A stretch of 64,000 bases of DNA from Octopus sinensis (GCF_006345805.1 NC_042997.1:188852001-188916000), one strand, 5' to 3'. Shown: positions 1 through 64,000, counted from the stretch's first letter. The notes: a model not told the origin generated them from the sequence alone. Translations and numbers: made by a program.

Positions 1-1077
1 CATCTAAGTACTCTTAAACACTTTTTTTCTATGTTATACGCTTATTAATAGGAATGCATTTACAACTATGCCCTTCGCATAGATTACACGCATTAATGTC
101 TTGTAAGAGAGCGCAAGCACCATAATTTACGGAAGTTAAACTCCTGTCGAAAAATGTTCAACGCTGAAGTTGATAAGATGCCAAACAACTATCTGAGAAA
201 TCTGTAGTTTCTATCATCCCTCAAATGTCAGTTCTCCTACTCTACAAGTAGGTACTATAAGATTGTATAATTCGTTGCACTATAATTCATTAATTTACAT
301 CGAGTCCAGTTCTTCCCATCAGAGAAGTCACGGGCAATAGATGAGTATTATATCGAAGACGTTTGTCTCGTCCAATTAACCCAAGAAAGTTTTAAGTTGT
401 GATTCAGTGAATTACACCAGTCCATAAAGGTTTCTTGTACTTTTTTCTTATTGTATTTTCCAGCATACGAGTCGAATTTTTCAGACCAAAATTTACGGCC
501 ACAAATGGTAGGTCGACTTATACACCAAGGCACCTTCGGGGGTCTTGGAAAGGCAGTGATTGTTTGAATGTTTACACTTTCTTGATTTGTATGCCAGAAA
601 ATACGGTAATCATTCCCGCTAAGCCAAAACAATAACTCATTTTCAATTCCAAAAGCATAAAGGCCATTGCATCCTTTCCTCTTTGCTTTATCTCAAGTCA
701 GTAAGAGTGATCATTTGTCAATGTATGACTATCTCAAAGTACAAAAGATCAAGCATTTAATTCAGTTTACTGTGTTGTGAAGCTTATAGTTATATATGTC
801 TATATTCCAATGTGTGGTTACATAGATATACACATACAATCTGTCTGTAGTCAGTGTTTAGTAGTGAGTGATACAACAGCTATAGATATGGCGGTTTGCA
901 GAACAGTTCTTATGGAATTTCTTTGCAAACTCAGATTATAAAATATTAAAATTTTCCAAATTGTTCAATGTTCTTGAGATTGGATGGTGTTGTTCACATA
1001 ACTGGATTGTTATCATTAAACAATGTGGCATGAATAAATCTAATAAATGTTTATGTGTGTGTGTGTATGTATATAAT

Positions 1078-59800: not shown

Positions 59801-60198
59801 TAATATATATATATACACAAAAATCAGGGATAACTTGACAAGCAATCATAAGGGGAGATAATTCAAAGGAATTAAAAAATTCTCATGATTAAAAGAAAAT
59901 ATCATTTAAGGTAGCAACGACGCCATTCATATTGTTGCCTTATTGGACCTCTTCCGTGCAGTACAGTCAGCACGAACCTGCTTGATTAATCGAAAACAAT
60001 TTCTTAACTATGGAAAAATGTTTAGAAATATTTTGGCTGATATTAACTTGCATAGAATAAGAAAATTGACCTAGGGGGAATAACTCCTATTTAATTTAAG
60101 GGAATTAACTTATAATTTAATTTCATAAATATATGCTTCATGCTTTGGTTTTTTTAATTCGAATTGTGATATCTAAGAGTTACGTCGCTTACATAGTT

Positions 60199-60500
60199 AA
60201 TAATAATAATAATGAAATTATTGTATACAGTGCTCAGGTGCACCACAACTTGTCAGAAAGTGCATATAAAGTACATGCAGTAATGTAGAAATGTCTGGAA
60301 AGCGAACAATGTATGAGTCAGATACATGCTTGCGTGTGTATGGAGAGGAGAAAATCAGGTGTAGTGTTGGCGAATCTCAGGAAGCATGGAAGTTTTGAAG
60401 GATGCAGTGCTCCGATAACTAACAACTGATGCCAGCAGTTTGTTCCATGCTTCAGCAACTCTCAGCGTGAAAAAATGTTTCCTGAAGTCATGGGAGCTGT
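60199..60500 (-). mobile_element. CR1 LINE 3' end
   Basis: FRKHFFTLRVAEAWNKL..SVV....TASFK; (ATT)n tail. Confidence 0.85.
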
Positions 60501-60817
60501 TGAATGGATACTGAATAAAAATAAAAATTAAAAAGCAAAAGAAAAAGAAAAATTTTGAAAGAAGCGAGTGTAGTGATTAAAGAAACTAATTTCGCTTTCC
60601 AAAAAATGTTTTAGTCTTCTGTAAAAGATTTATTGTCTTTTATAAAAAAAAAATCAGTGAGCAAATAATGATCTTTGGGTTGAACTCAAAAATGTCTAAG
60701 TCTCACGTGTCTTATTCAGAAAGCTCCAGTAAAGGAAATATAATAAGTTAAGATGGTTGATAACTAGTATTCTTAATTAAAAAAAAAAAATTTTTTACGT
60801 ATTTTGACAGAAAAAAA

Positions 60818-61186
60818 ACGTCAACACTAACATTAAAATAAAAATCAAATGGAAATTGTAGTTAAGATACCCATGCAGGTGACATGTAAAAACCGTCCGA
60901 ACGTGACCGGTGCCAGCGCCACCTCGACTGGCTTCTGTGCCGGTGGCACGTAAAAAGCACCAATTGATCGTGGCCGTTGTCAGCCCTGCCTGGCACCTGT
61001 GCCGGTGGCACGTAAAAAGCACCCACTACACTCATGGAGTGGTTGGCGTTAAGAAGGGCATCCAGCTGTAGAAACTATACCAGATCAGACTGGAGCCTGT
61101 TGCAGCCTCCTGGCTTCCCAGATCCCGGTCAAACCGTCCAACCCATGCTAGCATGGAGAACGGACGTTAAACGATGATGACGATGA
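60818..61186 (+). mobile_element. RTE 3' end
   Basis: 3' UTR units and (GAT)n tail. Confidence 0.88.
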
Positions 61187-61363
61187 AGACAAAACTGCAA
61201 AAAAGAAAAGAAAAAAAAAGCAAACAAACAAAAACACACCGCTTTTACTCCATAATATTTTACAGAAAAAGAAAGGATTGCCCGAATGGAATTAAGAGAA
61301 ATTATTGCCAGGAATGTAGCACAAATGAATCTAAAGGTCCAGCTGTTTATATATTGGTAATGC

Positions 61364-61416
61364 GTCCCCAAAGCCCATCCCCTCCTCACTGTGGTGGGGA
61401 CGCTGGCAACGGATAG
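61364..61416 (+). ncRNA. Putative HDV-like self-cleaving ribozyme (P4-less)
   Basis: P1 GTCCCCA/TGGGGAC; P2 CCATCC/GGATAG; L3 TCCTCACT; GGCAAC with candidate catalytic C61407; G1 is the first base of the element. Confidence 0.5.
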
Positions 61417-61739
61417 TGTCAGAGCTATGCCGTCGGGAACTTCGGTTCCTGGTAAGTCCACCCAAGGCGGATTGGTCTGACACCGAGTGGTATTAGGGCC
61501 GCAACCCGGCAGACAGGGCTCTGGTGAAAATCCTCAGAGTGTCTGTTTCGGCAACCGGCAGCTTCTCGGTCGTTCTGTCCCTGCGTCTGCGGACAATCAG
61601 CAGCAAACAGGATGTCTCTACATGCGAGATTGTTGGGGACCGCTTGTAAAATCCACATATTCCCACGAAACTTCTTCCATGGTAGAAGAAGCCGACTCAA
61701 CCCGCCCAGGGTGAATGTCGCCACGAGTACAAGTACAAG
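61364..61739 (+). mobile_element. 376-bp non-coding retroelement with (TACAAG)n tail
   Basis: Exact 14-bp TSD TATATTGGTAATGC (61350-61363; 61740-61753); GC-rich, many hairpins, no tRNA boxes. Confidence 0.88.
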
Positions 61740-62067
61740 TATATTGGTAATGCAACATAGCTAAATATAGAAATTAAAGTATTAAATAGCCGGGGATGGC
61801 TGAGACAAGAATTGTTTCATGATGATCAGCTGCCATTTGGGAATAGCAATGATGTTATTTTAGTTATTTATTGAAACAGTTGTTATACGGAAGATTGTTT
61901 TGATATTTATTTTACATTCTTACTTTAGAACATATTCATTATTATTTGTATTATTTCCTTAATGCTTTATTTTAATTTATGCAATTAAAAAGTGGTTAAA
62001 ATGCAAAATAGAAATGTTGAAGTATTGTCATGTAGTGGTTTATTCCAAAAAAAAAACAAAAAAACAT

Positions 62068-62241
62068 GTGCAAGCATGACTGTGTTGCAAGGAGCTTGCT
62101 TCCCAACCACATAGTTCTGGGTTCAGTCCCACTGCATGGTACCTTAGACAAGTGTCTTCAACTATAGCCTTGGGCTGCCCAAAGCCTTGTGAGTAGATTT
62201 AGTTGATGGAAACTGAAAGAAGGCTGTCATATGTATGAGTG

Positions 62242-62280
<39 letters not shown>

Positions 62281-62515
62281 ATGTATGTATGTATGTATGT
62301 ATGTATGTATGTGCGTTTGTGTGTGTTTGTTGATCCCCATCCATTGCTTGACAACTGGTGTTTGTGTATTTATGTCCCTATAACTAAGAGACTAATAAAA
62401 TAAGTACCAGACTTAAAAAAAAAAAACAAAAGTGCCAGGGTCTATTCATTTGACTAAAAATCCTTCAAGGCAGTACCCCAGTATGGTTGCAGTCTAATGA
62501 CTGAAACAAGTAAAA
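62068..62515 (+). mobile_element. SINE group A, old
   Basis: Diverged consensus match. Confidence 0.8.
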
Positions 62516-62874
62516 CTGTAGAACACTTTATATCTAGAAGTGTTCTACAGTTTTAAATCTATTATTAAGAAAGTTTATAATACAACATTGATGGCATCAA
62601 AAATACTTTTATGAAACTAAAAGATGTTATCATCTTGCATAGCATTCATTTAGCAATAATTCAAGAAGTGTCTTACTACCTCAAAAATAGAAAGCCTAGT
62701 ATTCAAAATCACGATAGGATCAGCCTAGACAGAACCTGCACAATGATGTGTGAGTGTGTAATAAGATAAATGTAAATACGTATATAAGAAATATCAAATA
62801 TGACATTAACAGGAACGAAACTGCAAACAGAAGCTTTCAAAATAAAAGGCAGCGACATGAAGCTCATTTAGTCT

Positions 62875-63317
62875 TTCAGTTGTTTCAGTCATTTGACTGC
62901 GCCCATGCTGGAGTACTGCCTTTAGTCAAGCAAATCGACCCTGGGACTTATTCTTTGTAAGCCTAGTACTTATTCTATCGGTCTCTTTTGCCGAACCACT
63001 AAGTTATGGGGACGTAAACATACCAGCATCGGTTGTCAAGCGATTTTGGGGGGACAAACACAGACACACAAACACATACACACACATACATATATACGGC
63101 GGGCTTCCTTCAGTTTCCGTCTACCAAATCCACTCACAAGGCTTTGGTCGGCCCGAGGCTATAGTAGAAGACACTTGCCTAAGGTACCACGCAGTGGGAC
63201 TGAACCCGGAACCATGTAGTTGGTAAGCAACTTACCACGCAGTGGGACTGAACCCGGAACCATGTAGTTGGTAAGCAACTTACCACACAGTCACTGCTTA
63301 CCACACAGCCACTCCTA
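62875..63317 (-). mobile_element. SINE group A with ~48-bp tandem duplication in the head
   Basis: TACCACGCAGTGGGACTGAACCCGGAACCATGTAGTTGGTAAGCAACT twice. Confidence 0.88.
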
Positions 63318-63410
63318 AACATATATATTTTTCTAACACAAATCTCACCGACCGTCCCACTAAAATACACACTCAACTCCCACCCTTTACCAGAGTATGA
63401 CACTGAGTAC

Positions 63411-64000
63411 GGATCTTTTTCTGTTTGGTTGCCAGCCTCAATTTTCTGTTCGAATTGATCCCATATTCAGTGTAATGATACACTTTCATAGACAGGCTAA
63501 TTAATGGCGTGAAAGTAATTTTCGATATATATCAATAAATAAATAGTTATTAGTAATTAAAGTTTGAAAATTTTGTTAATTTTAGCCAATCGTAAGCCAG
63601 GGACACATTCATGTCTGTTTCGAAAGTAACAAGCGGACACATAAGAATTCTTTTTTGTTATTGCCAAAGTAACAGTCTTTGAAAAGTTTGCGAGGAAGTA
63701 CGTTTTGACAGCAGTCTTGTTTGCTCGTTTCTTTTTGTCATTGAGCATCGAGGTGGTTGTGAGGTGTGCTAAAAATAACAGCTAAATATGATCTTTGCAA
63801 TAAATCTTTTAAATTAAAATTTATTTGCCAATATTTCGTTCAGAGATTTAAAACATATTACCGGAGACATAACACGTGTTGTTTACAAATATAGACAATA
63901 CGTACTATTTTCGGGATGTTGACGACAAAATGTGCAGTCACGCACAAAATGACAGCTTCCAAATCCTGTTTCCTGACTGGTTGTAAATGATCAAACTTTA
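63411..64000. mobile_element. Possible left end of another GGATCTTT-terminus element
   Basis: GGATCTTTTTCTGTTTG resembles the 55318 terminus; partner end not in the window. Confidence 0.3.

What the first reader, a model, noticed from the sequence alone, without database searches (positions are those of the whole stretch)
61364..61739. Ribozyme-headed short retroelement: HDV-like fold starts at the first base after the TSD
Seen: a perfect 14-bp TSD, (TACAAG)n tail, no A/B boxes and no convincing ORF. The first 53 nt can form P1 GTCCCCA/TGGGGAC, P2 CCATCC/GGATAG (one mismatch), a 2-bp P3, an L3 starting TCCTCACT (HDV genomic UCCUCGCU) and GGCAAC before P2'. The rest is rich in stems: GTGTCAGA/TCTGACAC, GGAAC-TTCG-GTTCC, CAGACA/TGTCTG, CTTCTT/AAGAAG. 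Established: HDV-like ribozymes cut 5' of P1 G1 and define the 5' ends of R2 and RTE elements and of R2 SIDEs. Inference: a promoterless non-autonomous RTE-dependent element released from read-through transcripts by self-cleavage, possibly an undescribed cephalopod family with a minimal P4-less ribozyme.
Basis: partly seen in the sequence, partly recalled or inferred. Interest (0 to 1): 0.75.

Follow-up and report, generated by a model that had tools for sequence, protein, structure and literature searches.

The report
RTE-derived short retroelement, HDV-like head
This 376-base repeat is an internally deleted copy of a ~3-kb RTE-like jumping gene (LINE), and the 5' end it shares with that LINE likely folds into a large HDV-like self-cleaving ribozyme, not the 53-base one first proposed, that would cut the element's RNA free of upstream transcript.

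Summary
The repeat, its target-site duplication and its (TACAAG)n tail are real. It belongs to a family with at least 1,576 first-look candidates in the 2.7-Gb genome.

It is not a classical SINE. Positions 1-316 are the 5'UTR plus the start codon of a ~3.05-kb single-ORF LINE (endonuclease + reverse transcriptase). The last ~58 nt are that LINE's 3' end.

Its catalytic C61407 is A there, and its P2 loses two pairs.

A larger HDV-like fold of about 157 nt fits both families:
- a 5'-terminal P1 with three compensatory pairs;
- P3, L3 and P1.1;
- a GCAA junction (J1/4);
- a ~100-nt P4 domain whose closing helix covaries;
- a conserved G-C-N-R-A junction, with the candidate catalytic C at window 61510;
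- a CCCC/GGGG P2.

None of the 23 differences between the two families breaks a pair.

Rfam scores are far below threshold, the pseudoknot helices are invariant, and no cleavage or RNA-end data could be obtained. I put the odds of a real ribozyme near 0.55. If it is real, it is a new member of a known kind.

The parts
61350..61361 (+). Left target-site duplication, the 12 unambiguous nt. The following GC (61362-61363) is shared between the TSD and the element's 5' end.
   Evidence: sequence; family 5' ends and TSD analysis.
61362..61739 (+). Internally deleted (SIDE-like) copy of an RTE-like LINE, family M. It comprises the 5'UTR, the ATG, the LINE 3' end and a microsatellite tail.
   Evidence: family; LINE copy L121 shares both ends.
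61362..61370 (+). P1 5' strand, GCGUCCCCA (positions -2..7). The predicted cleavage site is just 5' of 61362, or possibly 1 nt further upstream.
   Evidence: Rfam RF02682 alignment starts here; three compensatory pairs versus S1; 5' ends.
61379..61382 (+). P2 5' strand, CCCC (positions 16-19); predicted.
   Evidence: invariant in M and S1; complementary to 152-155; chance estimate.
61384..61394 (+). P3 (C21 C22 / G30 G31) enclosing L3 (U23-U29). C24 and A25 are predicted to form P1.1 with G42 and U41.
   Evidence: CM alignment; U23, C24, A25 and G28 conserved; 26, 27 and 29 vary.
61395..61403 (+). P1 3' strand, UGGGGACGC (positions 32-40).
61404..61409 (+). U41 G42 (P1.1 partners) and the J1/4-like GCAA.
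   Evidence: (Rfam HDV consensus GGGCAAC).
61410..61508 (+). Predicted P4 domain (positions 47-145). The closing helix is C47-G145 .. U51-A141. Inside it are stem 53-60/113-120 and the UUCG hairpin 73-86. In the window copy A50 (61413) breaks pair 50/142.
   Evidence: (51/141 compensatory, 48/144 and 56/117 G-U).
61509..61514 (+). Predicted J4/2, G146 C147 A G A C. The candidate catalytic C147 is at 61510.
   Evidence: GGC-NRA-C conserved: M CAGA, S1 CCAA, S2 CUAA; Rfam consensus GGCuAA.
61515..61518 (+). P2 3' strand, GGGG in the family. The window copy reads AGGG, because G152>A at a CpG breaks pair 19/152.
   Evidence: (61515 A>G in other copies).
61679..61681 (+). ATG start codon of the parent LINE ORF, retained. 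The internal deletion junction lies directly after it.
61682..61727 (+). 3' end of the parent LINE (end of ORF plus short 3'UTR).
   Evidence: query 318-376 matches L121 3194-3250 at 89.8%.
61728..61739 (+). (TACAAG)2 microsatellite tail. In other copies it is followed by (TAAG)n.
61740..61753 (+). Right copy of the target-site duplication.

Best explanation
The 376-nt element is an internal-deletion derivative of a ~3.05-kb single-ORF RTE-like LINE, and the first ~157 nt that both share are predicted to fold into a large HDV-like self-cleaving ribozyme that would release the RNA from read-through transcripts at the base of its 5'-terminal helix.

Shown:
- The family, its TSDs and its tail.
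- Identity of both ends with a LINE that carries a reverse transcriptase.
- 5' ends that map to the first base of a terminal helix in two sister families, although the helix differs in sequence and length between them.
- Covariation in that helix and in the helix that closes the following ~100-nt domain.

Inferred:
- The pseudoknot pairings: P2 (16-19 with 152-155) and P1.1 (24-25 with 41-42).
- C147 (window 61510) as the catalytic base.
- Cleavage 5' of G-2 (window 61362).
- Mobilisation of the short element in trans by the LINE's protein through the shared 3' end.

The window copy carries two substitutions (61413 and 61515) that break model pairs, so it is probably an inert insertion.
For: Family and parent LINE:
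- The family is large: 1,576 first-look candidates, of which 40 were scored at 91-100% identity. A 35-mer from positions 28-62 has 165 exact matches and 0 for the reversed control.
- L121 carries element positions 1-318 at its 5' end and 318-376 at its 3' end, 3,054 bp in all. Its ORF starts at the retained ATG and has RVT_1 at 3.4e-17.
- Homologous proteins of 1,000-1,050 aa carry endonuclease and RT domains on 3.3-3.8-kb contigs.

Position of the 5' ends:
- Family M: GC precedes G1 in 45 of 71 copies (GT in 7). In 30 copies with a TSD of 10 nt or more, the DNA between TSD and G1 is nothing in 7, C or T in 8, GC or GT in 5, NGC-type in 6 and longer in 4. The control gave 0 of 302 mismatched pairs with a match of 9 nt or more.
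- Family S1: CT precedes ACCC in 21 of 30 copies. The modal extra DNA is CT. This is again the first base of the helix.

Match to HDV-like models:
- Rfam RF02682 aligns with its position 1 on G-2. It scores 12.5 bits for the window copy and 15.6 bits for a majority-like copy.

Fit of the full fold to M versus S1:
- The two families differ at 23 positions.
- Four pairs change on both sides and still pair (1/38, 2/37, 6/33, 51/141).
- One pair is gained on both sides (-2/40).
- Two changes give G-U pairs.
- Eleven changes fall in predicted unpaired positions.
- None breaks a pair.
- In L3, U23, C24, A25 and G28 are conserved while 26, 27 and 29 vary.
- G-C-N-R-A followed by (C)GGGG sits directly after the P4 closing helix.

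Chance of the 3' half: placing a J4/2-like motif and a P2 complement right after that helix succeeded in 259 of 200,000 shuffles (a post hoc test).

Context: HDV-like ribozymes are reported in RTE elements that lack promoters and are co-transcribed (PMC6765202, passage read).
Against: - Rfam scores (12.5 and 15.6 bits) are far below the gathering score of 44. No model aligns the whole fold.
- P2, P3 and P1.1 never vary between M and S1, so no covariation supports the pseudoknots.
- The geometry is not canonical. To my recollection, P1 is 6-7 bp and P3 is 3 bp in known members. Here P1 is 9 bp in M and 8 bp in S1, P3 is 2 bp and P2 is 4 bp. The base pair at the cleavage site is G-C in M and C-G in S1, where I recall G.U as usual.
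- The 5' ends are ragged. T is enriched at -3 (42 of 71) and -4 (36 of 71) in M, and before CT in S1 (11 of 21). A precise cut does not predict this, unless the reverse transcriptase adds untemplated A.
- A loose descriptor for the 3' half passes in 1,204 of 20,000 dinucleotide shuffles.
- Family S2 keeps the GGCUAA-CGGGG motif and the P4 domain but lacks the 5' strands of P1 and P2. That region therefore also has some other role.
- The more distant D family shows no HDV-like match.
- No RNA-end or cleavage data were obtained.
Confidence: 0.55

Rival explanations
1. There is no active ribozyme. The 5' end is set by transcription initiation from an internal promoter in the conserved, CpG-rich 316-nt 5'UTR. 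The terminal hairpin and the conserved ~100-nt structured domain would then serve other roles, such as RNA stability, translation initiation or binding of the LINE protein. The HDV-like features would be a relic of an ancestral ribozyme, or chance.
For: - The 5' ends are ragged, from -4 to -1, in both families.
- The pseudoknot pairs show no covariation.
- Rfam scores are far below threshold.
- The CM alignment of the majority-like copy places the model's catalytic C opposite G50.
- S2 keeps the 3' motifs without P1.
- The loose descriptor passes in 6% of shuffles.
- Positions 47-145 are better conserved between LINE families than their RT protein is: 3 M/S1 nucleotide differences inside 52-140, against 64-72% RT amino-acid identity. 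That fits a DNA-level or other RNA-level function.
Against: - The 5' end tracks the base of the helix in both families, although its distance to the conserved domain differs by 2 nt.
- The order and spacing of P1, P3/L3, the GCAA junction, the P4 closing helix, G-C-N-R-A and the P2 complement follow the HDV layout. The conditional chance estimate is 259 of 200,000.
- The L3 conservation pattern matches.
- Elements of this clade are reported to lack promoters (PMC6765202).
Confidence: 0.36
2. One reading: a minimal P4-less 53-nt HDV-like ribozyme starting at G61364, with P2 CCATCC/GGATAG and catalytic C61407.
For: - P4-less minimal HDV-like ribozymes exist (preprint 10.1101/2023.06.13.544163, passages read).
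- The GGCAAC motif resembles the HDV junction.
- The window copy's A50 improves the proposed P2.
Against: - Copies commonly carry GC, TGC or TTGC upstream of G61364.
- C44 is A in S1 and S2, which have equally sharp 5' ends.
- Two of the five P2 pairs are lost in S1 without compensation.
- G48-U51 pair with 141-144, and that helix is supported by covariation.
Confidence: 0.04
3. A classical Pol III SINE whose head is too diverged to recognise.
For: The element is short and abundant, has a sharp 5' end and has no run of four T in the sense strand.
Against: - No tRNA, 5S, 7SL or snRNA match at E<=10.
- The whole 5' 316 nt is the 5'UTR of a 3-kb protein-coding LINE.
- Several independent deletion classes exist.
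Confidence: 0.02

Closest known systems
HDV-like ribozymes at the 5' ends of RTE and other non-LTR retrotransposons (Ruminski et al. 2011; seen only as a reference entry and through the PMC6765202 passage)
   Same: - The position at the 5' terminus of an RTE-like LINE.
- The order of P1, P2, P3, L3, P1.1, J1/4 (GCAA), P4 and J4/2 (G-C-N-R-A).
- The predicted role: release from co-transcripts.
   Different: - No member was aligned here, and Rfam HDV-type models score only 12.5-15.6 bits.
- P1 is 8-9 bp, P3 is 2 bp, and the P4 position holds a ~100-nt conserved three-way domain.
- The pair at the cleavage site is G-C or C-G rather than G.U.
- Activity is untested.
R2 SIDEs: non-autonomous elements made by internal deletion of full-length R2 (PMC3414825; title and start of abstract seen)
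   Same: Short derivatives keep the ribozyme-bearing 5' end and the 3' end that the parent's protein needs. Several independent deletion classes exist.
   Different: The parent is a dispersed RTE-like LINE with TSDs and a microsatellite tail, not a 28S-specific R2. The copy number is in the thousands.
L1Tc/NARTc Pr77 (PMC3383444 and PMC3185411; abstracts seen)
   Same: A LINE and its truncated non-autonomous partner share a 5' element reported to act both as an HDV-like ribozyme and as an internal promoter. This shows that the two readings offered here need not exclude each other.
   Different: A different clade and host, and a 77-nt element. No sequence relation was tested.
Minimal (P4-less) HDV-like and theta ribozymes (10.1101/2023.06.13.544163)
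   Same: The first ~47 nt resemble the 5' half of any HDV-like ribozyme.
   Different: Those ribozymes lack P4 and come from phages and metagenomes. Here the P4-less reading fails the comparison with S1.
A canonical HDV-like ribozyme family in the same genome (L122-L139)
   Same: The sequence runs parallel over the 5' half: [UCC][UCACCGU][GGU]G[GGGACGC]UGGCAAC here, against [ACA][UCCUCAU][GGU][GUGGACU]GGGCAAC there.
   Different: That family scores 27-35.5 bits on RF02682 and 33 bits on RF00094. It has a short P4 followed by GGCUAAAA, has only 14 copies, and is not at the 5' end of its repeat unit.

Membership tests
HDV-like self-cleaving ribozyme | Nested double pseudoknot (P1, P1.1, P2, P3, P4) in the canonical strand order | tested here: inconclusive
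   All elements can be drawn in the right order for M and S1. The lengths are atypical (P1 8-9 bp, P3 2 bp, P2 4 bp), and no tool here folds pseudoknots.
HDV-like self-cleaving ribozyme | Cleavage at the first nucleotide of P1 (PMC4908430 passage), so the RNA 5' end coincides with the base of P1 | tested here: inconclusive
   Retroelement 5' ends map to the helix base in M (G-2) and S1 (C-1), with extra T in about half of the copies. DNA copies are only a proxy for RNA ends.
HDV-like self-cleaving ribozyme | Catalytic cytosine at the first position of J4/2 (preprint passage) | tested here: inconclusive
C147, in G-C-N-R-A directly after the P4 closing helix, is conserved in M, S1 and one of the two S2 copies. 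Its function is untested.
HDV-like self-cleaving ribozyme | Covariation supporting the helices | tested here: inconclusive
   P1 has 3 compensatory pairs plus one coordinated gain. The P4 closing helix has 1 compensatory pair and 1 G-U change. P2, P3 and P1.1 are invariant, which says nothing either way. Only two independent lineages were available.
HDV-like self-cleaving ribozyme | Score at or above the Rfam gathering threshold for an HDV-type model | tested here: not met
   RF02682 scores 12.5 bits (window copy) and 15.6 bits (L036) against a threshold of 44. No other HDV-type family appears at E<=10.
HDV-like self-cleaving ribozyme | Mg2+-dependent self-scission abolished by changing the catalytic C to U | not testable with these tools
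   This needs an in vitro transcription and cleavage assay.
RTE-clade LINE (parent element) | A single ORF with an N-terminal AP-type endonuclease and an RT, about 3.2 kb long, with a short 3'UTR ending in a microsatellite | tested here: met
   - L121 is 3,054 bp.
- RVT_1 scores 3.4e-17.
- The N-terminus reads ..CWNVRTLLDD...
- Homologues carry PF03372 + PF14529 + PF00078.
- The tail is (TACAAG)n(TAAG)n.
- In the frameshifted L121 itself, Pfam did not call the endonuclease domain.
RTE-clade LINE (parent element) | Phylogenetic placement of the RT within the RTE clade | not tested
   No tree was built. The link is indirect: 37-39% RT identity to an intact 1,123-aa family. That family resembles RTE-2_OV as described in the PMC9115989 passages.
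SIDE-like internal-deletion derivative | Both termini are identical to those of the autonomous element and the internal coding region is missing | tested here: met
   Several breakpoints occur in M and in S1.
Pol III SINE | A head derived from tRNA, 5S, 7SL or snRNA, with an internal promoter | tested here: not met
   No such Rfam match at E<=10. The head is a LINE 5'UTR.
   The proposed catalytic C and two of the P2 pairs are not conserved in S1. Nucleotides 48-51 pair with 141-144.

The most novel reading that the evidence does not exclude
An active HDV-like ribozyme of unusual build heads two abundant LINE/short-derivative families. Its unusual features are:
- a long P1;
- a base other than G at +1 in one family;
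- a ~100-nt conserved three-way domain in place of P4, which doubles as a platform for translation or protein binding.

A third lineage (S2) replaced the ribozyme's 5' half with the leader of another LINE, switching from ribozyme-defined to promoter-defined 5' ends.
Probability: 0.25. Interest if true: 0.6.

Novelty: new member of a known kind. Interest (0 to 1): 0.45.

Why it matters
If the ribozyme is active, thousands of dispersed copies would be self-cleaving sites inside host transcripts of a genome noted for retroelement activity. Many of those copies probably lie in introns. The short derivatives would then be a second example, outside R2, of ribozyme-headed deletion derivatives parasitising their parent LINE.

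The M/S1/S2 series would also offer a natural comparison of how a LINE defines its 5' end, by ribozyme or by acquired leader.

If the ribozyme is not active, the finding is an ordinary LINE-derived repeat with a conserved structured 5'UTR.

None of the octopus transposon papers examined mentions a ribozyme in these elements. PMC9115989 and PMC13282606 have 0 occurrences of the word. Full-text searches found no paper linking the two.

Tried and rejected
- **RNA evidence.** The look-up of sequencing runs listed no RNA holder on record, and all runs were Logan contigs. Laying X1, X3, X9 and X10 showed only that family sequence is in those runs. No begin or end pile-ups were reportable.
- **Long-range pairing.** The MFE fold of the whole element pairs the 5' end with UUGGGGAC at about position 270. 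That partner does not covary in S1, so I rejected it in favour of the local hairpin.
- **Other 3'-half solutions, all rejected.**
  - P2 = CCA12-14/UGG125-127 after stem 53-60/113-120: U125>C in S1 is uncompensated.
  - P4 = 47-49/67-69 with C71: this clashes with the UUCG hairpin, which has a compensatory change in S2.
  - C62 in GCUAU: no P2 partner.
- **Within-family covariation.** Impossible. The copies that looked divergent (82-88% identity) are the same young family with different deletion breakpoints.
- **D family.** The 5' end of this family (intact 1,123-aa ORF) has no HDV-like match at E<=10, and its fold z-score is -0.85.
- **Metagenome scan.** A scan for the conserved core found 0 matches.
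- **The search of earlier findings.** It held nothing for this genome.
- **The count of structure pairs.** Not used, because MAFFT placed the S1 gap inside the P1 3' strand. I made the pair table by script instead.
- **Papers not held.** PMC3256349 and PMC3308841 could not be read. Statements about canonical helix lengths and the G.U pair at the cleavage site are therefore recalled, not read.

Full report
**What is at the coordinates**

Window 61364-61739 is flanked by the identical 14-mer TATATTGGTAATGC, at 61350-61363 and 61740-61753. It ends in (TACAAG)2.

Rfam finds no tRNA, 5S, 7SL, snRNA or named ribozyme at E<=10 in 60000-64000.

In the window's own genome (2.72 Gb, 13,516 contigs) the 376-nt query has 1,576 first-look candidates. 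All 40 that were scored are 91-100% identical, and nearly all start at query base 1-3. A 35-mer from positions 28-62 has 165 exact matches, and the reversed control has 0. The repeat, the TSD and the tail are therefore real.

**Where the element really starts**

I sampled copies by that internal 35-mer, so the choice did not depend on the 5' end. That gave 90 distinct copies, 71 of them full length.

|---|---|---|
| -1 | C (T in 9 more, as CpG decay would give) | 56 |
| -2 | G | 54 |
| -3 | T | 42 |
| -4 | T | 36 |
| -5 and beyond | background (T = 31%) | n/a |

Of 61 copies with a recognisable 3' end, 30 have a TSD of 10 nt or more. In the control, 0 of 302 mismatched flank pairs gave a match of 9 nt or more. 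The DNA lying between the TSD and G1 in those 30 copies is:

| DNA between TSD and G1 | Copies | Note |
|---|---|---|
| none | 7 | in 4 the TSD itself ends in GC |
| C or T | 8 | in 7 the TSD ends in G |
| GC or GT | 5 | |
| NGC-type | 6 | TGC/TGT 3, AGC 2, TCC 1 |
| longer | 4 | TTTTGC, TATTGT, a 12-mer ending TTGC, and a duplication |

Copies L012, L046 and L088 carry an internal piece of the element, then (T)GC or GT, then G1. A reverse transcriptase that copied GC at the RNA end before switching template would produce this.

The RNA template therefore usually begins at G-2 (window 61362) or 1-2 nt further upstream, not at G61364. In the window copy the last two TSD bases are overlap between target and element.

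**What the element is**

Several copies carry extra sequence at position 318, directly after an ATG. One of them, refetched as L121, continues for 3,054 bp:
- element positions 1-318 at the 5' end (92% identity);
- an ORF starting at that ATG (MNSQWRILTRLLLACWNVRTLLDDG...), broken by frameshifts in this copy;
- RVT_1 at 3.4e-17;
- element positions 318-376 at the 3' end (90% identity).

Relatives in the protein collection are 1,000-1,050 aa long. They carry PF03372, PF14529, PF00078 and PF20049 on 3.3-3.8-kb contigs.

So the 376-nt family (M) is an internal-deletion derivative of a single-ORF LINE with endonuclease and RT. It keeps the 316-nt 5'UTR, the ATG and about 58 nt of the 3' end. Other deletion classes exist, of about 400 and about 500 nt.

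The build matches the RTE clade: about 3.1 kb, one ORF and a microsatellite tail. Microsatellite tails are described as common in RTEs in PMC9115989 (passages). I did not build a tree.

**Sister families**

A search with the RT segment found tiers of relatives, and I fetched the DNA upstream of 26 of them.

| Family | RT identity to M | What was seen |
|---|---|---|
| M | 80-88% | the window's family |
| S1 | 64-72% | homologous 5'UTR; 1,134 first-look candidates; its own short deletion derivatives of 332-468 nt |
| S2 | 43-50% | two copies; shares the domain from about position 17 onward; a different, longer leader related to family D |
| D | 37-39% | intact 1,123-aa ORFs |

S1 copies begin with CUACCC. 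CT precedes ACCC in 21 of 30 copies, and a T precedes that in 11 of those 21. The modal extra DNA between TSD and ACCC is CT.

I compared majority sequences of 108 M copies and 30 S1 copies.

- The terminal helix is real and longer than proposed: GCGUCCCCA/UGGGGACGC in M (-2..7 with 32..40), and CUACCCUA/UAGGGUGG in S1.
- Pairs 1/38 (G-C to U.G), 2/37 (U-A to A-U) and 6/33 (C-G to U-A) change on both sides. Pair -2/40 is present only in M.
- In both families the element's 5' end is the first base of this helix.
- G48-U51 instead pair with 141-144. Pair 51/141 is U-A in M and C-G in S1, and 48/144 is G-C in M and G.U in S1.

The 53-nt P4-less model is therefore not supported.

**A larger HDV-like fold that fits**

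Rfam's HDV-F-prausnitzii model aligns with its position 1 on G-2, giving P1 GCGUCCC/GGGACGC, P3 CC/GG, a 7-nt L3, and then U-GG-CAAC.
- The window copy scores 12.5 bits (E = 4.2 for 181 nt against 4,227 families).
- The majority-like copy L036 scores 15.6 bits (E = 0.88).
- The gathering score is 44.

Extending this alignment with the S1 comparison gives the following model:

| Element | Positions | Note |
|---|---|---|
| P1 | -2..7 / 32..40 | covaries |
| P2 | C16-C19 / G152-G155 | invariant |
| P3 | C21 C22 / G30 G31 | invariant |
| L3 | U23-U29 | U23, C24, A25, G28 conserved; 26, 27, 29 vary |
| P1.1 | C24-G42, A25-U41 | invariant |
| J1/4 | 43-46 | (G/U)(C/A)AA |
| P4 | 47-145 | whole conserved domain; closing helix C47-G145 to U51-A141; contains stem 53-60/113-120 and the UUCG hairpin |
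| J4/2 | from 146 | G146 C147 N R A: CAGA in M, CCAA in S1, CUAA in S2 |

For comparison, the Rfam HDV consensus reads GGCuAA at J4/2.

All 23 M/S1 differences in -2..169 are compatible with the model:
- 8 form 4 compensatory pairs;
- 2 form the gained pair;
- 2 give G.U pairs;
- 11 lie in unpaired positions.

The nested part of the model costs 3.9 kcal/mol more than the MFE: -65.4 against -69.3.

**How much of this could be chance**

- A loose descriptor for the 3' half is met by 1,204 of 20,000 dinucleotide shuffles. It asks for any helix of 4 bp or more from position 47/48, then C-N-R-A within 2 nt, then a 4-bp complement to the bases next to P3.
- If the closing helix is taken as given, because it has its own covariation, the same junction and P2 directly after it occur in 259 of 200,000 shuffles.
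- Both tests were designed after I had seen the motif.

**Weak points**

- The pseudoknot helices never vary, and there are only two lineages.
- From my recollection of the family, which I could not read here, P1 is usually 6-7 bp, P3 is 3 bp and the cleavage-site pair is G.U. Here they are 8-9 bp, 2 bp and G-C or C-G.
- The 5' ends are ragged, with T or TT upstream. This could come from untemplated A addition by the reverse transcriptase or from real heterogeneity of RNA starts.
- S2 keeps the J4/2-P2 motif and the P4 domain without the 5' strands of P1 and P2, so that region has at least one other function.
- No RNA-end data were available.

**Mechanism I commit to (odds about 0.55)**

LINE and short-derivative RNAs are made as parts of longer transcripts. 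The 5' ~157 nt would fold into an HDV-like ribozyme that cuts 5' of G-2. The LINE protein would then copy the RNA from its shared 3' end by target-primed reverse transcription, giving TSDs and 5' joins with 1-2 nt of microhomology.

The main rival (about 0.36) is a promoter-defined 5' end with a structured, possibly relic, leader. The L1Tc case (abstracts) shows that both could hold at once.

The window copy has A50 and A152, each of which breaks a model pair, so it is likely an inert copy.

**Comparison with what is known**

HDV-like ribozymes in RTEs and in some non-autonomous elements, with the role of freeing promoterless elements from co-transcripts, are described in PMC6765202 (passage). 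Deletion derivatives that keep the ribozyme end are known for R2 (PMC3414825: title and start of abstract).

If it is real, this is a new member of a known kind with some variant features. The octopus transposon papers that I searched by term (PMC9115989, PMC13282606) do not contain the word ribozyme.

Noticed in passing
L122-L125 (minus strand, 1501-1578) and L126-L139: A separate low-copy repeat (14 genomic matches) carries a canonical-looking HDV-like ribozyme, GGUCCAC...GUGGACU-GGGCAAC-P4-GGCUAAAA. It scores 27-35.5 bits on RF02682 and about 33 bits on RF00094, both below gathering. It lies inside a repeat unit of at least 1.6 kb, not at its 5' end. The ORF upstream in L123 looks Helitron-like to me (..FKIQGQTYHRIGSILP..FLQIYFMGD..), a resemblance I recall and did not test.
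   Followed up: partly
L162-L165 (for example G000:C1:449625-452961): Family D is an RTE-like LINE with an uninterrupted 1,123-aa frame. Copies are 98.6-99.1% identical over 2.7-2.9 kb, so the family may still be active. In ORF and UTR size it resembles RTE-2_OV as described in PMC9115989. Its 5' end has no HDV-like match.
   Followed up: partly
L156 and L159 (family S2): The 5'UTR looks chimeric. A D-like leader is joined to the M/S1-type conserved domain from about position 17. The terminal helix's 5' strand and the CCCC of P2 are missing, while GGCUAA-CGGGG is kept.
   Followed up: partly
window 61672-61695; L167, L168 and L186 in S1: In both M and S1 the end of the 5'UTR (CUUCUUC just before the ATG) is complementary to GAAGAAG in the LINE 3' end. 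The commonest deletion junction lies between these two arms. This could reflect a 5'-3' contact in the LINE RNA, or microhomology-guided template switching that creates the short derivatives.
   Followed up: no
flanks of L012, L023, L031: An unrelated, apparently very abundant repeat with a tRNA-like B-box motif (..GGTTCAGTCCCACTGCGTGGCACCTTGGGC..) recurs beside copies of the family.
   Followed up: no
window 62227-62316, 62511-62555, 63005-63143: TG/TA microsatellites and a short palindrome give spurious sub-threshold miRNA matches in Rfam. These are artefacts of simple sequence.
   Followed up: no
L012, L046, L049, L088, L108, L183: Some copies have a partial duplicate of the element's own 5' region joined upstream of the full 5' end. 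This is consistent with end-to-end template jumping by the reverse transcriptase.
   Followed up: partly
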